This document shows positions 6,787 to 11,320 of a stretch of 17,146 nt of DNA, piece after piece. This DNA is from Verrucomicrobiota bacterium. Lineage in GTDB: Bacteria > Verrucomicrobiota > Verrucomicrobiia > Limisphaerales > CANJXF01. The DNA is taken from contig JBBQRQ010000108.1 in NCBI GenBank assembly GCA_038214755.1, forward strand, positions 1 to 17,146, written 5' to 3'. A model generated the notes under the pieces. That model made no database searches. It saw nothing but the letters and a program-made list of their open reading frames with translations, and was not told the origin of the DNA. The position numbers were made by a program, and so were the translations under genes. Positions within the stretch are counted from its first letter, which is position 1. Every line of letters begins with the position of its first letter.

Positions 6787-7043
6787 TTAAGGCGTAACTA
6801 TTCAGTAGAGAAGTTGCTCGCCCTCACCCTAACCCTCTCCCCCGAGGAGAGGGAATAGCTATTGCGTGGCTCGAAAATTTTTTGCTCCATTGCACTAGCC
6901 GGCGTCTGGTTATTCGCAAAAGAACGCGCGTGATGACCCAGCGCATCAATATTGCCAAAACGCGGCGAACGATTCTCCCTCTCCTCGGAGGAGAGGGCCG
7001 GGGTGAGGTCGAGCGTTTCTTTTACTGAAATAGTTGCGGTTAA
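6787..7043. mobile_element. MITE/REPIN-like hairpin element, copy 1 (BoxC-like CCCTCACCC...CCCTCTCC...GGAGAGGG arms)
   Basis: Imperfect terminal inverted repeats ttaaggcgtaactattcagta...ctcgccctcaccc versus gggtgaggtcgagcg...tactgaaatagttgcggttaa. Each arm contains a ccctctcc-N-ggagaggg hairpin. TTAA occurs at both ends (6787-6790, 7040-7043). Confidence 0.75.
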
Positions 7044-7076
7044 GAATTTTTATTACAGTTCCAGTTATAGATTAGT

Positions 7077-7281
7077 TCGCCCTCACCCTAACCCTCTCCC
7101 CCGAGGAGAGGGAATAGCTATTGCGTGGCTCGAAAATTTTTTGCTCCATTGCACTAGCCGGCGTCTGGTTATTCGCAACGCGATAAACCGGCCGCTCCAA
7201 ATTACCAAAACGCGGCGAACGATTCTCCCTCTCCTCGGAGGAGAGGGCCGGGGTGAGGTCGAGCGTTTCCTTTTCACTGAA
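7077..7281. mobile_element. MITE/REPIN-like hairpin element, copy 2
   Basis: 7077-7178 is identical to 6818-6919 and 7205-7269 is identical to 6955-7019. The central segment differs. Confidence 0.75.
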
Positions 7282-8951: not shown

Positions 8952-9122
8952 GAAGTCCGAAGTCCGAAATCCGAAATCCGAAAGAAATCCGAAATCCGAA
9001 TACTGAAAACGACTTGCCGCCAGCGCTCAACAACGTGCTTTGCGACCCGCACAATGCCGCAGCACTTTCGGCCTTCGAGCTTCGGATTTCTTTCGGCTCT
9101 CGGATTTCGGGTTTCGGATTTC
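8952..9122. repeat. Inverted pair of heptamer (GAAATCC-type) arrays forming a long palindrome
   Basis: Left arm 8952-9008 and the reverse complement of right arm 9066-9122 are both 57 bp with the same layout: 4 heptamers, GAAA, 3 heptamers, GAAA. Confidence 0.85.
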
Positions 9123-9191
9123 AGGATAAATTCCTATGGCTCACAAGCAGCGTCGAAGACGTCGGCGTCACACTTTTTCACAAGAGATTTC

Positions 9192-9536
9192 TCACGCCGC
9201 CTCCACCAGCAGACTCTGGCTGCGGAGGCGGATTTGATTTTGCTTTTGTAATTGCAACCGCGCGCGCCGCGCTTTTTCTTCCAGCAACGCCGGGAAAAAA
9301 AGCAACGGGAACGAAGTCGTCCACGCCAGAGCTTCGGCGTCATTGGCGGCGCGTCGCAACGGCGCGTCGAGTTCGGCTTGAACAGAGTCGTCGAGCAACC
9401 GCCGTAATAAACGGCTTTTCAATTGCTCGAATTTTTTTTCCTGCTCGGCGCGAAATGGCGGCGCGAATTGCAGCGCCAAATCAAAACGCGTTTCCCGCGC
9501 GAACCGAGTCGGCACTTCCTGTTTTTTCTTTTTCAT
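9192..9536 (-). CDS. Hypothetical protein, basic and alpha-helical, 114 aa
   Basis: ATG at 9536 is preceded by the purine-rich RBS agaaaggaaaa. The sequence is protein-like (LRRAANDAEALAWTTSFPLLFFPALLEEK) and, from memory only, resembles conserved Verrucomicrobia hypotheticals. The 9590 start in the ORF track lies inside the terminator. Confidence 0.75.
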   Translation of the reverse strand: MKKKKQEVPTRFARETRFDLALQFAPPFRAEQEKKFEQLKSRLLRRLLDDSVQAELDAPLRRAANDAEALAWTTSFPLLFFPALLEEKARRARLQLQKQNQIRLRSQSLLVEAA

Positions 9537-9575
9537 TTTTCCTTTCTGATCTGCTTTTTGAAGCAGCAAATTATT

Positions 9576-9614
9576 AAACAAAAAACCCACGATTGACGGG
9601 CAATCGTGGGTTTT
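9576..9614 (-). terminator. Intrinsic terminator in the 5' leader of the 114-aa gene (attenuator candidate)
   Basis: Perfect 14-bp stem aaaacccacgattg (9582-9595) / caatcgtgggtttt (9601-9614). On the minus strand the stem runs into UUUUUUGUUU (9585-9576), about 40 nt upstream of the ATG at 9536. Confidence 0.85.
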
Positions 9615-9635
9615 AAAAATCTTTTGTTGGGTTGG

Positions 9636-9746
9636 TTAGAAGATTCCTGCCACGTTGCCAGAAGCCTGGTGCGAGCGCCAAATCGGCATCACTCCCACGG
9701 CGCATGCGGCGCACAGGCTGACTTTTACTGTGAACGTGTTTTTCAT
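9636..9746 (-). CDS. Putative leader peptide (36 aa, MKNTFTVKVSLCAACAVGVMPIWRSHQASGNVAGIF)
   Basis: Short ORF between a TTGACA promoter box and a terminator. Its Gly-Asn-Val-Ala codons (GGCAACGUGG) are complementary to the terminator's 5' arm and loop. Confidence 0.6.
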   Translation of the reverse strand: MKNTFTVKVSLCAACAVGVMPIWRSHQASGNVAGIF

Positions 9747-9758
9747 CTTCGAGGCAGG

Positions 9759-9787
9759 AAGAAACTCGACCGCGCCTGGATTGTCAA
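9759..9787 (-). promoter_or_regulatory. Candidate sigma70-type promoter for the leader peptide
   Basis: Perfect TTGACA (9787-9782, minus strand), a 17-nt spacer, then only a weak -10 (TTTCTT, 9764-9759), 12 nt before the ATG. Confidence 0.4.
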
Positions 9788-9865
9788 AAGAATTTTTTTC
9801 GGTGCGAAGGCGACGAGGGCGCATCTCACTCAATTGCAGGTTTCAAACCTTCGGAAAGAGGCGGC

Positions 9866-9942
9866 AACGGAACGCCGATCTCCTGATCGGCATTGGAACG
9901 CGCCACATTTTCGGCGAGCCGATCAGGAGATCGCGTTCCGTT
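9866..9942. repeat. REP doublet (GGAACGCCGATCTCCTGATCGGC type)
   Basis: aacggaacgccgatctcctgatcggc (9866-9891) and gccgatcaggagatcgcgttccgtt (9918-9942) are inverted copies differing by one base. The left unit is itself a hairpin (gccgatc-tcct-gatcggc). Confidence 0.8.
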
Positions 9943-10008
9943 ATTTTGCCGGAAATTGAGAGGCGCTCGAAGGCGATGAGGGCGCATCTCACCATCCTGG
10001 AAACAGGA

Positions 10009-10208
10009 TTGTCCCGAAGGGACTTGACGAGAATAGCCCGGCGTTTCAACGCCGGGAAAAGGGGCGCAATTTATAAGTTCCGAAGGGACGGCCGAAATGC
10101 TGAGTGATTGGATGAATTTTCAGCCGTTCCTTCGGAACTAAATCCCTCCCCACATCAAATCCCGACGTTCAAACGCCGGGCTATTATCAAATGTCCCTTT
10201 CGGGACAA
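10009..10208. repeat. ~200-bp nested palindromic REPIN/MITE-like element (GTCCC-GGGAC and CCCGGCGTT-AACGCCGGG hairpins)
   Basis: Ends ttgtcccgaagggac and gtccctttcgggacaa. Internal inverted pairs aatagcccggcgtttcaacgccggg / cccgacgttcaaacgccgggctatt and agttccgaagggacggccgaaa / tttcagccgttccttcggaact. Confidence 0.8.
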
Positions 10209-10300: not shown

Positions 10301-11320
10301 GTGAACGGTGATCCACATGACACGAGCAAGCCGTTGCGAATGGTCAGTTGCGGCGCGTGCAACACCAAAAATTTTATTCCCGGCGATTTGCCGAAGTTCG
10401 AAACCGTCCCCTGCTCCAAGTGCGGACATCCCGTCATGCTGCCAGTGTCACTCCGCCAATTCGAGTTGCGCGAAGTCATCGCGTCCGGCGGCATGGGCAC
10501 GGTTTTCAGCGCGTTCGATGTCAATCTCCAGCGCGAAGTCGCTTTGAAAATGATGAAGCGCGAGATGGCGCAGGATCAGGAAATTTTGGAAAGTTTTTAT
10601 CGCGAAGCCCGCGCCGGCGCATCCTTGAATCACACCAACATCATTCACATTTACACGTTCGACGAATTCGAGGGGCAACCGTATCTCGCCATGGAACTGG
10701 CCAACAATGGCAGTCTTGATTCTCGAATCACCGCCGAGGTACGCCTTCCCGAATACGATGTTCTCAGCACTGGGATCAAAGTCGCTTCCGCTTTGGCCAG
10801 CGCGTTGAAACACAACTTGCTTCATCGCGACATCAAACCGAGCAACATCCTTTTCAACAACGACTCGCCCCCGGAACCGAAACTGATCGATTTCGGTTTG
10901 GCGCGAAAAGCGGAGACCGATGAAGATGTTTCCAGCGAATCCAGCGTTTGGGGGACGCCGTATTACGTGGCGCCGGAAAAAATAAAACGGGAGCGCGAAG
11001 ATTTTCTTTCGGACATGTATAGCCTCGGCGGCACGCTTTATCACGCCTTGACCGGACACGTTCCCTTTGAAGCGCCGACGGTGGAGGATTTGGTTTCCGC
11101 GCATGTCCATACTCCGTTGACGCCGCCAAATCAGGTGGTGCTCGAGATCACCCAAAAAACCAGCGACGCTTTAGTGCGAGCGATGGCAAAGAATCCGGCG
11201 GACCGTTTCCAATCTTACGATGAATTCATCATTGACCTGACGGCAGCGCAAAGCGATTTGCTGGTCAATGAGCAAAAAATTCAAGCCAAAAACAGCGGAA
11301 AAAGTTGGTGGCGTCGTTAA
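10301..11320 (+). CDS. Hanks-type Ser/Thr protein kinase with N-terminal zinc ribbon, 339 aa
   Basis: CGAC...CSKC zinc ribbon; IASGGMGTVF, VALK, HRDIKPSN, DFG, GTPYYVAPE, SDMYSLG catalytic motifs intact; no transmembrane segment. Confidence 0.93.
   Translation: MNGDPHDTSKPLRMVSCGACNTKNFIPGDLPKFETVPCSKCGHPVMLPVSLRQFELREVIASGGMGTVFSAFDVNLQREVALKMMKREMAQDQEILESFYREARAGASLNHTNIIHIYTFDEFEGQPYLAMELANNGSLDSRITAEVRLPEYDVLSTGIKVASALASALKHNLLHRDIKPSNILFNNDSPPEPKLIDFGLARKAETDEDVSSESSVWGTPYYVAPEKIKREREDFLSDMYSLGGTLYHALTGHVPFEAPTVEDLVSAHVHTPLTPPNQVVLEITQKTSDALVRAMAKNPADRFQSYDEFIIDLTAAQSDLLVNEQKIQAKNSGKSWWRR

What the first reader, a model, noticed from the sequence alone, without database searches (positions are those of the whole stretch)
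9192..9787. Candidate ribosome-dependent attenuator: 36-aa leader peptide with antiterminator/terminator switch upstream of an uncharacterised gene
Seen on the minus strand, in order: TTGACA box, a 36-codon ORF (9746-9636), a perfect 14-bp terminator with U-tract (9614-9576), an RBS, and a 114-aa unknown gene. The last leader codons (GGCAACGUGG, 9659-9650) can form 10 bp with one bulge against CCACGAUUGCC (9609-9599), which is the terminator's 5' arm plus part of its loop, so the two structures are mutually exclusive. A second CGUGGG (9699-9694) also matches the arm's CCCACG. Established: this is the geometry of trp/his/leu-type and antibiotic-responsive attenuators. Inference: translation to the stop masks the antiterminator and causes termination, while stalling near the single Trp codon (9680-9678, 18 nt before the antiterminator) or within MPIWRSH would allow read-through. 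The leader has no run of one amino acid and the downstream gene is not a recognisable biosynthetic enzyme. It may therefore be an arrest peptide sensing a ligand or translation stress, with the basic helical protein as an unknown effector.
Basis: partly seen in the sequence, partly recalled or inferred. Interest (0 to 1): 0.85.

Follow-up and report, generated by a model that had tools for sequence, protein, structure and literature searches.

The report
Conserved leader-peptide attenuator, verrucomicrobial orphan gene
A tiny translated mini-gene wired to a switchable transcription stop signal sits in front of a small protein of unknown function in many soil and freshwater Verrucomicrobiota; it is the textbook attenuation switch, but without the usual run of tell-tale codons, so what it senses is still open.

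Summary
It is not chance. The same layout precedes homologs of the 114-aa gene in 109 of 110 loci fetched: TTGACA box, 32-40-codon ORF, conserved terminator, small hairpin, RBS.

On 92 distinct leaders:
- The terminator is 99.1% paired, with 7 compensated pairs.
- The antiterminator is 91.1% paired, against 28-44% in slid controls.
- Synonymous sites in the antiterminator strand are frozen.
- The ORF is kept in frame in 89 of 92 despite nine different lengths.

A third segment, leader codons 3-5, can pair with the antiterminator strand and covaries with it. Support for this is moderate.

The same genome uses the same design, with classical codon runs, before isopropylmalate synthase (Leu), an acetolactate-synthase-like gene (Val/Ile) and DAHP synthase (Phe/Trp/Tyr). 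These serve as internal positive controls.

Verdict: a real ribosome-dependent transcription attenuator, absent from Rfam. The signal is unknown. A single Trp codon in 80 of 85 leaders is the best candidate sensor. This scan noted the same family before on another genome.

The parts
9782..9787 (-). -35 box TTGACA of the leader promoter
   Evidence: Sequence. T-T-G-A-C are at least 90% conserved in 92 leaders.
9759..9764 (-). -10-like hexamer TTTCTT, 17 nt after the -35 box (inferred)
   Evidence: Sequence. The aligned position reads TTTCTT, CATAAT, TATAAT or TTTAAT in relatives. The consensus scan did not call it in the window. No transcription start data exist.
9636..9746 (-). 36-codon leader ORF, stop codon included
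   Evidence: The aligned start-to-stop frame is intact in 85 of 92 leaders, plus 4 with a shifted start. Control frames: +1 open in 0 of 92, +2 open in 40 of 92.
9733..9738 (-). Segment 1 (CACGTT, codons 3-5), candidate anti-antiterminator partner of segment 2
   Evidence: Minimum-energy fold of the window leader. 75.9% of cells paired against 28-55% in slid controls; pair 110/240 reads AU 68, GU 8, GC 7. Four-way table. The energy test was not significant.
9678..9680 (-). Single Trp codon, candidate stall site, 18 nt before segment 2
   Evidence: W is present in 80 of 85 leaders and exactly once in 74. Composition-shuffled ORFs give 48%.
9650..9659 (-). Segment 2, antiterminator 5' strand GGCAACGTGG (codons 30-33)
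   Evidence: Synonymous sites are frozen: GGC in 76 of 78 Gly codons and GTG in 75 of 76 Val codons, against 44% and 59% in the downstream genes.
9599..9614 (-). Segment 3: terminator 5' arm (9614-9601) plus the first loop bases. 9609-9599 pairs with segment 2.
9576..9595 (-). Segment 4: terminator 3' arm (9595-9582) and T-run
   Evidence: The stem is 99.1% paired, with 7 pairs changed on both sides in 65 cells.
9551..9566 (-). Second small hairpin (CTGCTT/AAGCAG) between terminator and RBS, no T-run, role unknown
   Evidence: A hairpin of at least 5 bp is predicted in 74 of 89 loci. Mean z is -1.1 and 24 loci have z < -2. The sequence varies between loci.
9540..9546 (-). Purine-rich ribosome-binding site GAAAGGA of the 114-aa gene
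   Evidence: Sequence.
9192..9536 (-). Regulated gene: 114-aa protein, disordered basic N-terminus plus three helices, no known family
   Evidence: No Pfam or NCBIfam family. 214 relatives. 1321 cluster representatives, none fused to another domain. AF2 pLDDT 84.5. No convincing fold match.
10301..11320 (+). Divergent Ser/Thr protein kinase gene, the commonest upstream neighbour of the module
   Evidence: Pkinase, E = 1.1e-45. A homologous divergent neighbour is present in 40 of 97 distinct loci.

Best explanation
This is a ribosome-dependent (leader-peptide) transcription attenuator that controls the 114-aa gene.

How it most likely works:
1. Transcription starts a few bases upstream of the leader ATG. 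This is inferred from the conserved TTGACA-17 nt-TTTCTT promoter.
2. The position of the first ribosome on the 36-codon ORF decides the fate of RNA polymerase at the terminator.
3. If the ribosome reaches the last codons or the stop, it covers segment 2 (9659-9650). Segments 3 and 4 then fold into the terminator and transcription ends at about 9580.
4. If nobody translates, segment 1 (9738-9733) can hold segment 2, with the same result.
5. If the ribosome is delayed in the middle of the ORF, roughly codons 8-27, segment 2 is free. It pairs with the terminator's 5' arm (9609-9599) before the 3' arm is made, and polymerase reads through into the gene.

Shown here: the parts, their conservation, covariation in segments 2:3 and 3:4, selection for an open frame, and identical geometry in textbook Leu, Ile/Val and aromatic attenuators of the same genome.

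Inferred: the start site, the role of segment 1, and the signal. My split for the signal is:
- slow decoding of the nearly universal single Trp codon, about 0.35;
- general slowing of translation by stress or antibiotics, about 0.3;
- a peptide-specific arrest, about 0.15;
- something else for the rest.
For: Recurrence and exclusivity:
- The architecture is in 109 of 110 loci carrying a homolog of the gene.
- All 26 distinct matches to the terminator pattern in 61 genomes lie directly upstream of a homolog. The reversed-pattern control gave 0.
- A covariance model gives strong hits (E <= 3e-12) in 77 of 151 genomes of the order.

Structure:
- Terminator 99.1% paired, 7 compensated pairs.
- Antiterminator 91.1% paired against 28-44% slid.
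- Mean antiterminator duplex -18.7 against -13.4 kcal/mol for shuffled ORFs. The best partner lies at segment 2 in 89 of 92. The cognate arm beats foreign arms in 81 of 92.
- Divergent loci keep the pairing with different letters: L121 has GGGCGACATGGG against CCCATGATCGCCC, and L122 has a wholly different terminator.
- C at column 240 never meets A at column 299, 0 of 8.
- Synonymous sites are frozen in segment 2.

Translation:
- The frame is kept in 89 of 92 leaders through nine different lengths; 35-36 codons in 67 of 85.
- ATG at the aligned start in 82 of 92.
- Third-position excess, 220/249/311, p = 2e-4.

Internal controls: a genome-wide screen of the window's own genome finds the same design with codon runs before three biosynthetic genes.
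- Isopropylmalate synthase: VNRNLNLRLLLNALLCGVAVGF
- An acetolactate-synthase-like gene: MNLIALQIVVVRSVVVGDDAAGSCRA
- DAHP synthase: MNLSSFRFSAFWFGEYFIANLR
In each, the antiterminator strand occupies the last 5-8 codons, as it does here.
Against: - No expression data. No RNA run holds the locus, so the start site, the terminated RNA and read-through are unobserved.
- The leader has no run of any one amino acid, so the classical sensing logic is not visible.
- 5 of 85 leaders have no Trp.
- 3 of 92 leaders have a broken frame: L079, L080, L095.
- Frame +2 is also open in 40 of 92, so openness alone is weak evidence.
- In minimum-energy folds the terminator arm also finds a partner of at least 6 nt in 237 of 368 ORF-shuffled controls, against 91 of 92 real ones. 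That particular test discriminates poorly.
- Segment 1:2 is only moderately supported. The energy test gave -12.45 against -11.80, and partner positions were scattered.
- Two further helices in the window's own fold are not conserved.
Confidence: 0.8

Rival explanations
1. The antiterminator/terminator switch is real, but it is set by a trans-acting factor or a small ligand. One candidate is the basic 114-aa protein binding its own leader, as ribosomal-protein leaders do. The ORF would then be incidental or only auxiliary.
For: - The terminator arm and loop are unusually conserved in sequence.
- The protein has a basic disordered N-terminus.
- There is no run of regulatory codons.
- Extra conserved structure exists inside the ORF: the mid-ORF hairpin scores 0.309 for covariation against 0.18 in shuffles, 0 of 500 reaching it.
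Against: - The conservation of the terminator sequence is explained by its pairing with segment 2.
- The frame, the start and the stop are kept through many in-frame length changes, 89 of 92. A pure RNA or protein switch would not require that.
- Sister elements of the same design in the same genome carry obvious Leu, Val/Ile and aromatic codon runs.
- No Rfam family matches.
Confidence: 0.08
2. The 36-codon ORF with its terminator is an independent small gene, either a small protein or a small RNA. The 114-aa gene has its own promoter, and the complementarity is a by-product.
For: - A terminated RNA of about 170 nt would be a stable product.
- Attenuator-derived RNAs and leader peptides with roles in trans are reported for Sinorhizobium trpL (PMC6614838, PMC7298713; seen only as listing and start of abstract).
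- The linkage could reflect co-function.
Against: - Only 19-107 nt, mostly 30-60, separate the terminator from the gene's ATG, and no conserved promoter is visible there.
- The peptide is weakly constrained: 121 synonymous against 229 non-synonymous changes.
- The antiterminator strand is constrained at synonymous sites and covaries with the terminator. This only makes sense if read-through matters.
Confidence: 0.07
3. Chance juxtaposition of an ORF, a terminator and a complementary stretch.
For: Short open frames are common in this DNA; frame +2 is open in 40 of 92 leaders. Shuffled ORFs often pair with the terminator arm in minimum-energy folds.
Against: The arrangement is conserved in 109 of 110 loci across dozens of families of the order, with compensating changes.
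Confidence: 0.01

Closest known systems
Classical leader-peptide attenuators of amino-acid operons (trpL, leuL, ilv and pheL leaders of Proteobacteria; Rfam Leu_leader RF00512 and Trp_leader RF00513, accessions as quoted)
   Same: A promoter-proximal short ORF, an intrinsic terminator, an antiterminator that overlaps the ORF's 3' end and the terminator's 5' arm, and a possible upstream anti-antiterminator. Ribosome position sets the outcome.
   Different: There is no run of codons for one amino acid, and the regulated gene is not biosynthetic. The leader is somewhat longer, 35-36 codons. There is no sequence or model match to any Rfam family.
Leu, Ile/Val and aromatic attenuators of the same genome and order (G000:C38 before isopropylmalate synthase, G000:C1 before an acetolactate-synthase-like gene, G000:C75 before DAHP synthase)
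   Same: The same chassis: a TTGAC box, a leader ending ...G-x-V-G-F-stop, the antiterminator strand in the last 5-8 codons, an A-run, a CCC...GGG hairpin and a T-run, with about 59-67 nt from the stop to the end of the terminator match. The model built from the focal family hits the 3' half of the Leu leaders at E = 1e-6 to 1e-10.
   Different: Those leaders are 22-26 codons long and packed with the cognate codons. The focal leader is 36 codons long with one Trp codon and no run.
Antibiotic-inducible ribosome-stalling attenuators (erm, cat and ABC-F leaders from my own recall; tylosin-dependent stalling before yxjB, PMC6851288, seen as listing and start of abstract)
   Same: A short ORF without codon runs, where a stalled ribosome frees an antiterminator. 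Sister leaders of the focal type precede an MFS transporter and an EamA transporter.
   Different: No known stalling motif was recognised, the regulated protein belongs to no resistance family, and nothing here was tested with drugs.
Regulatory arrest peptides TnaC and SecM (recalled, not tested)
   Same: A conserved Trp some 13-16 residues from the C-terminus and a conserved Gly-rich C-terminal stretch.
   Different: Much of that conservation is explained here by RNA pairing. The peptide is weakly constrained overall. The terminator is intrinsic, not Rho-dependent.

Membership tests
Ribosome-dependent (leader-peptide) transcription attenuator | Short ORF near the 5' end of the transcript, kept open by selection | tested here: met
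   The ORF is kept in 89 of 92 leaders through nine lengths, and ATG is at the aligned start in 82. Third-position excess, p = 2e-4. Caveat: frame +2 is open in 40 of 92.
Ribosome-dependent (leader-peptide) transcription attenuator | Intrinsic terminator between the leader ORF and the structural gene | tested here: met
   A 14-bp stem plus T-run, 99.1% paired with 7 compensated pairs.
Ribosome-dependent (leader-peptide) transcription attenuator | Antiterminator mutually exclusive with the terminator, with its 5' strand within a ribosome's reach of the stop codon | tested here: met
   The strand lies in codons 30-33 of 36, and its 3' end lies 11 nt before the stop codon.
Ribosome-dependent (leader-peptide) transcription attenuator | Upstream segment 1 that sequesters the antiterminator strand when the leader is not translated | tested here: inconclusive
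   For: 75.9% paired against 28-55% slid; G-C at columns 110/240 in 7 of the 8 leaders with C at 240; segment 2 pairs with the first 44 nt in 66 of 92 minimum-energy folds. Against: the duplex-energy test was not significant and partner positions were scattered.
Ribosome-dependent (leader-peptide) transcription attenuator | Read-through depends on translation of the leader | not testable with these tools
   No RNA data for the locus. This needs reporter or in-vitro assays.
Amino-acid biosynthetic operon attenuator (trp/leu/his type) | Tandem or clustered codons for the cognate amino acid in the leader | tested here: not met
   The commonest residues are G 9.4%, T 8.6% and V 8.5%, with no runs. 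W occurs once in 74 of 85 leaders.
Amino-acid biosynthetic operon attenuator (trp/leu/his type) | The downstream gene is a biosynthetic enzyme or an aminoacyl-tRNA synthetase | tested here: not met
   The 114-aa helical protein has no Pfam or NCBIfam family, and its 1321 relatives are all small single-domain proteins.
Any Rfam family | Match to a curated covariance model | tested here: not met
   Nothing at E <= 1 in window 9540-9800. Nothing at E <= 0.1 in the leaders of 7 other loci.
Nascent-peptide arrest sequence (TnaC/SecM type) | Peptide sequence conserved for its own sake near the stall site | tested here: inconclusive
   M-[SA]-[IM]-W-x-R and G-[NI]-V are conserved. G-[NI]-V is RNA-constrained. 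Overall there are 121 synonymous against 229 non-synonymous changes. W shifts position in some leaders instead of being lost.

The most novel reading that the evidence does not exclude
The branched-chain and aromatic attenuator chassis of these Verrucomicrobiota has been re-used, stripped of its codon run, as a sensor built around one Trp codon in an [IM]-W-R context. On this reading it gates a small non-biosynthetic regulon:
- the 114-aa three-helix protein, whose best but weak fold resemblances are to sigma-factor region 2;
- in some genomes, an EamA transporter (leader ...CAIWRH...);
- an MFS transporter (leaders with FWF or three W).

It would then report either Trp-tRNA charging or drug- or stress-induced ribosome slowing to an unknown regulatory protein. 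The abundant terminated leader RNA or the peptide might also act in trans.
Probability: 0.2. Interest if true: 0.75.

Novelty: new member of a known kind. Interest (0 to 1): 0.5.

Why it matters
The finding gives a well-supported and apparently undescribed cis-regulatory family in a poorly studied phylum. Rfam has no match, and two literature searches found no paper that describes it.

It also shows that leader-peptide attenuation is a routine device in this verrucomicrobial order. The window's genome alone has Leu, Ile/Val and aromatic versions plus two orphan versions.

The orphan version ties translation status to a widespread protein family of unknown function, with 1321 cluster representatives. 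That supplies a concrete handle for finding out what the protein does and what the leader senses.

It is a useful test case for attenuators that lack codon runs. Screens based on codon runs would miss them.

Tried and rejected
- **Rfam.** No family in the leader or in the sister leaders.
- **Protein libraries and fold searches for the 114-aa protein.** Pfam and NCBIfam gave nothing. Foldseek against PDB gave no hit at E <= 0.001. The ESM Atlas returned only unnamed Verrucomicrobiota clusters. The profile search returned no fused or longer informative relatives.
- **VIA-align wide search.** The best Z was 7.5, with several sigma-factor region-2 chains among the top rows. This is below the level the tool calls meaningful for helical bundles, so it is a lead only.
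- **RNAalifold on the 92 leaders.** It returned only the terminator.
- **Two extra helices in the window's own fold.** These are GAAGAU 9750-9745 with AUCUUC 9644-9639, and AGGAAUCUU 9648-9640 with AAGAUUUUU 9623-9615. Neither is conserved. Real against shuffled energies were -2.86 against -2.97 for the first and -3.86 against -2.79 for the second. The cognate partner was better in 48 and 54 of 92.
- **The second CGUGGG (9699-9694).** Not conserved.
- **Count of antiterminator formation in minimum-energy folds.** It proved a weak test, because ORF-shuffled controls also pair in 237 of 368 cases. It was replaced by energy and position tests.
- **Duplex-energy test for segment 1:2.** Not significant.
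- **Copies of the leader in the window's own genome.** None by blastn or by pattern.
- **Sequencing runs.** No RNA holder is listed and only DNA runs are.
- **Earlier notes of this scan.** Searches by place and by sequence returned nothing.
- **Literature.** The two searches were 'Verrucomicrobia' + 'leader peptide' + 'attenuation' (5 papers) and 'transcription attenuation' / 'leader peptide' / 'antiterminator' / 'Verrucomicrobiota' with at least 3 of 4 terms (42 papers, none holding the fourth term among the 12 listed). Neither turned up a description of this element. I saw only listings and the starts of abstracts.
- **Distant paralogs of the gene.** L114-L116, L118-L120, L124 and L125 lack the leader.
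Full report
**Observation**

Read on the minus strand, the window shows the following features:
- TTGACA at 9787-9782.
- A -10-like TTTCTT 17 nt later, at 9764-9759.
- ATG at 9746, then a 36-codon ORF ending with TAA at 9638-9636.
- A 14-bp hairpin, 9614-9601 with 9595-9582, loop CCCGT, followed by a T-run.
- A second small hairpin at 9566-9551.
- A purine-rich RBS at 9546-9540.
- A 114-aa ORF at 9536-9192.

GGCAACGTGG (9659-9650) is complementary to CCACGATTGCC (9609-9599) with one bulged A. The full leader folds at -61.9 kcal/mol (z = -3.6, 0 of 200 shuffles as good) into the terminator plus a long-range helix, CACGUU 9738-9733 with AACGUG 9656-9651.

**The regulated gene is real but anonymous**

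- It matches no Pfam or NCBIfam family.
- It has 214 relatives in the protein collection. Those that carry a name are named hypothetical proteins, mostly of Verrucomicrobiota or Pedosphaera MAGs.
- It was found in 44 of 61 related genomes and in 366 loci of the species-representative genome collection.
- A profile search returned 1321 cluster representatives, all about 90-180 aa and none fused to another domain.
- AlphaFold2 (pLDDT 84.5) gives a disordered basic N-terminus and three helices.
- Foldseek finds nothing at E <= 0.001.
- The wide structural search gives at best Z 7.5. Several sigma-factor region-2 chains are among the top rows, below the level the tool regards as meaningful for helical bundles.

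**The leader is conserved with the gene**

- Upstream of the homologs, 109 of 110 fetched loci carry the same terminator. The narrow pattern finds 101. In 8 of the other 9, the variant hairpins are visible in the printed sequence. Only L096 lacks one.
- The stricter hairpin finder missed three of the 101 (L025, L057, L070) and skipped L074, whose upstream stretch was too short.
- I aligned the 92 distinct leader regions (A3). Duplicates were dropped, as were L025, L057, L070, L074 and L096. One row, L018, comes from the unpublished genome G009, and no claim depends on it.
- The -35 box, the Trp codon, GGCA.CGTGG and the whole terminator are at least 90% conserved, while the flanks are not.
- All 26 distinct matches to the terminator pattern in 61 genomes lie directly upstream of a homolog of the gene, and the reversed-pattern control gave none.
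- A covariance model of the leader gives strong hits (E <= 3e-12) in 77 of 151 genomes sampled from the order.
- More distant paralogs of the gene lack the leader.

**RNA switch**

*Terminator.* 99.1% of cells are paired. Seven of 14 pairs have changes on both sides, in 65 cells, and 0 of 500 shuffles reach this.

*Antiterminator.*
- 91.1% of cells are paired, against 28-44% when the partner is slid.
- The A-to-T variant at column 237 (AAC to ATC) simply shifts the bulge. This is my own reading of the sequences.
- At pair 240/299 the counts are U-A 43, U-G 40, C-G 8 and other 1. C never faces A.
- The antiterminator duplex averages -18.7 kcal/mol, against -13.4 for the best duplex in dinucleotide-shuffled ORFs.
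- In 76 of 92 leaders at most 1 of 20 shuffles does as well.
- The best partner lies at segment 2 in 89 of 92.
- A leader's own arm beats foreign arms in 81 of 92.
- Divergent loci keep the helix with other letters: L121, L122, L117 and L123, and L031, L032 and L026 by eye.
- Synonymous sites in segment 2 are frozen. Gly is GGC in 76 of 78 and Val is GTG in 75 of 76. In the downstream genes of the same loci the shares are 44% GGC and 59% GTG.

A cruder test was uninformative, and I report it as such. In minimum-energy folds the arm pairs with the ORF in 91 of 92 real sequences, but also in 237 of 368 ORF-shuffled ones.

**A possible segment 1**

- Codons 3-5 (A/C-CACGTT) are complementary to segment 2.
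- 75.9% of cells are paired, against 28-55% slid.
- Seven of the eight leaders whose segment 2 reads GCG have G at the facing position of segment 1. All eight have the G-C form of the terminator.
- In 66 of 92 full-length folds, segment 2 pairs with the first 44 nt.
- An energy test was not significant, and the best partner's position was scattered.

I treat the four-segment, trp-like model as likely but not established.

A mid-ORF hairpin just before the Trp codon has some covariation: score 0.309 against 0.18, with 0 of 500 shuffles reaching it. It is weak in the window itself.

**Translation**

- The aligned start-to-stop frame is intact in 85 of 92 leaders. Four more have a shifted start. 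Three are broken: L079 has TGA at the Trp position, and L080 and L095 are frameshifted.
- Lengths range over nine values from 32 to 40 codons, and 67 of 85 are 35-36 codons. The many length changes are therefore in frame.
- Control frames are open in 0 of 92 (+1) and 40 of 92 (+2).
- In 36 independent pairs, differences fall 220/249/311 on codon positions 1/2/3 (p = 2e-4). Single-base codon changes are 121 synonymous against 229 non-synonymous.

Selection therefore acts mainly on the frame being open, and only weakly on the peptide.

No residue dominates. G is 9.4%, T 8.6% and V 8.5%, while D, E and Y are depleted. Trp stands out:
- It occurs in 80 of 85 leaders, against 48% in composition-shuffled ORFs.
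- It occurs exactly once in 74.
- It lies 13-16 residues from the C-terminus in 70 of 86 occurrences.
- It is displaced rather than lost in most leaders that lack it at the usual column.

Internal Met is similarly over-represented, in 84 of 85 leaders.

**Internal positive controls**

Weak partial hits of the model covered the stretch from the antiterminator strand to the terminator. They turned out to be Leu-rich leaders.
- The window's own genome has VNRNLNLRLLLNALLCGVAVGF. Others include MNNTNLRLSLLNALLLGSTAVGF.
- There are 17 such loci. By eye, 14 show an isopropylmalate-synthase-type N-terminus downstream. Two of these were confirmed by Pfam: L127 with HMGL-like plus IPMS_D2, and L132 with HMGL-like only.

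A blind screen of the window's own genome asked for a TTGAC box, a short ORF, an antiterminator and a terminator upstream of a gene. It returned five candidates. The four preceded by a TTGAC box were:
- the focal element;
- the Leu leader;
- MNLIALQIVVVRSVVVGDDAAGSCRA before a thiamine-pyrophosphate enzyme of the acetolactate-synthase type;
- a 42-codon leader before an MFS transporter.

A relaxed screen returned ten candidates. It added MNLSSFRFSAFWFGEYFIANLR before DAHP synthase, along with some probable false positives.

In all five leaders of this genome the antiterminator strand occupies the last 5-8 codons. In the three textbook cases the regulatory codons end 1-3 codons before that strand. 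In the focal and MFS leaders the Trp lies 6-7 codons before it.

A focal-type leader (...KCAIWRHLMVKACLVAGGDLNF) also precedes an EamA transporter in another genome.

**Mechanism**

By geometry, and by analogy with the sister elements:
- A ribosome that reaches the end of the ORF covers segment 2, and the terminator forms.
- A ribosome held up in the middle third leaves segment 2 free to capture the terminator's 5' arm before the 3' arm is transcribed, and the gene is expressed.

The cause of the hold-up is not shown. The single Trp codon is the best candidate. General slowing of translation and a peptide-specific arrest are not excluded.

**Context**

- The commonest neighbours are a divergent Ser/Thr kinase, in 40 of 97 distinct loci and including the window's 10301-11320. 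A CitMHS_2 transporter lies about 160-200 nt downstream on the same strand in 33 of 97, but not in the window.
- In the window the kinase-to-gene spacing is 764 nt, against about 310-320 nt in the same genus. A repeat of about 150 nt, present in dozens of copies, lies just upstream of the promoter.

**Comparison and novelty**

The element works like the classical amino-acid attenuators and fails two of their defining features: the codon run and the biosynthetic target. It matches no Rfam model. The two literature searches found no paper that describes it (listings and starts of abstracts only).

This scan had already noted the same family on another genome (e1-2281294), a verrucomicrobial leuA attenuator (e1-2830329) and an aromatic leader before DAHP synthase (e1-951719). 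I reached the first two independently and checked the third in this genome.

I class it as a new member of a known kind. Interest is moderate, because the mechanism is textbook while the missing codon run and the unknown effector make it a good experimental target.

Noticed in passing
window 9817-9966 (flanking direct repeats 9805-9829 and 9968-9992; perfect 16-nt inverted repeat 9876-9891 / 9918-9933): A repeat element of about 150 nt, resembling a miniature transposable element, lies just upstream of the leader promoter. blastn finds dozens of copies at 82-95% identity across the window's own genome. It explains why the kinase-to-gene spacing is 764 nt here, against about 315 nt in the same genus.
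   Followed up: partly
window 10010-10056 (-) and 10161-10207 (+); also 6820-7260: Sub-threshold Rfam matches to Acido-Lenti-1 (32.5 and 30.8 bits, gathering score 37) form the arms of a 29-nt inverted repeat (10029-10057 / 10160-10188). There are also four whalefall-1-like matches at 6820-7260.
   Followed up: no
window 9551-9566 (-), and the same position in other loci: A second hairpin without a T-run lies between the terminator and the RBS. Its sequence varies but its structure is kept: at least 5 bp in 74 of 89 loci. Its role is unknown; it might stabilise the mRNA or be a processing or pause site.
   Followed up: partly
own genome G000:C38:28050-28134 (+), locus L127: A classical Leu-rich leader (VNRNLNLRLLLNALLCGVAVGF) with antiterminator and terminator precedes isopropylmalate synthase. 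The same arrangement is in at least 16 other genomes of the order. It is not in Rfam at E <= 0.1.
   Followed up: partly
own genome G000:C1, terminator ending near 34881 (+), locus L129: A Val/Ile/Leu-rich leader (MNLIALQIVVVRSVVVGDDAAGSCRA) with a terminator precedes an acetolactate-synthase-like thiamine-pyrophosphate enzyme.
   Followed up: partly
own genome G000:C75, locus L152 77-145 (+); gene at 222-1238: An aromatic-rich leader (MNLSSFRFSAFWFGEYFIANLR) precedes DAHP synthase (DAHP_synth_1, E = 5.8e-75).
   Followed up: partly
own genome G000:C158:1853-2093 (-), locus L128; also L143 (G154) and L150 (G044): Orphan attenuators of the same design precede transporters. A 42-codon leader (...RGFWFSLIKTTGQQEEII) precedes an MFS_1 transporter. 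A leader with three Trp precedes its homolog in G154. A focal-type leader (...CAIWRH...) precedes an EamA transporter in G044.
   Followed up: partly
loci L127, L141, L144, L151, just after the Leu-leader terminator: A recurring motif, AACCACGAATGAACACGAAT or a close variant, follows the terminator in several genomes. In L127 it pushes the isopropylmalate synthase start about 150 nt away. It may be another small repeat element.
   Followed up: no
own genome G000:C46, terminator ending near 23536 (-): The relaxed screen lists a Ser-rich short ORF (MASSSSSLTAAARSTS) with a weak 7-bp terminator before a 108-aa ORF. It may be a false positive.
   Followed up: no
window 9070-9135 (-): Downstream of the 114-aa gene lies a run of imperfect GAAATCCGAAA-like repeats, seen by eye.
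   Followed up: no
record titles of loci L053, L060, L069, L070, L077, L085, L088, L104: Some contigs that carry this Verrucomicrobiota-type gene and leader are titled Saccharimonadales, Acidoferrum, Binatia, Bifidobacteriaceae or Baltobacteraceae. These are probably mis-binned or mislabelled MAG contigs.
   Followed up: no
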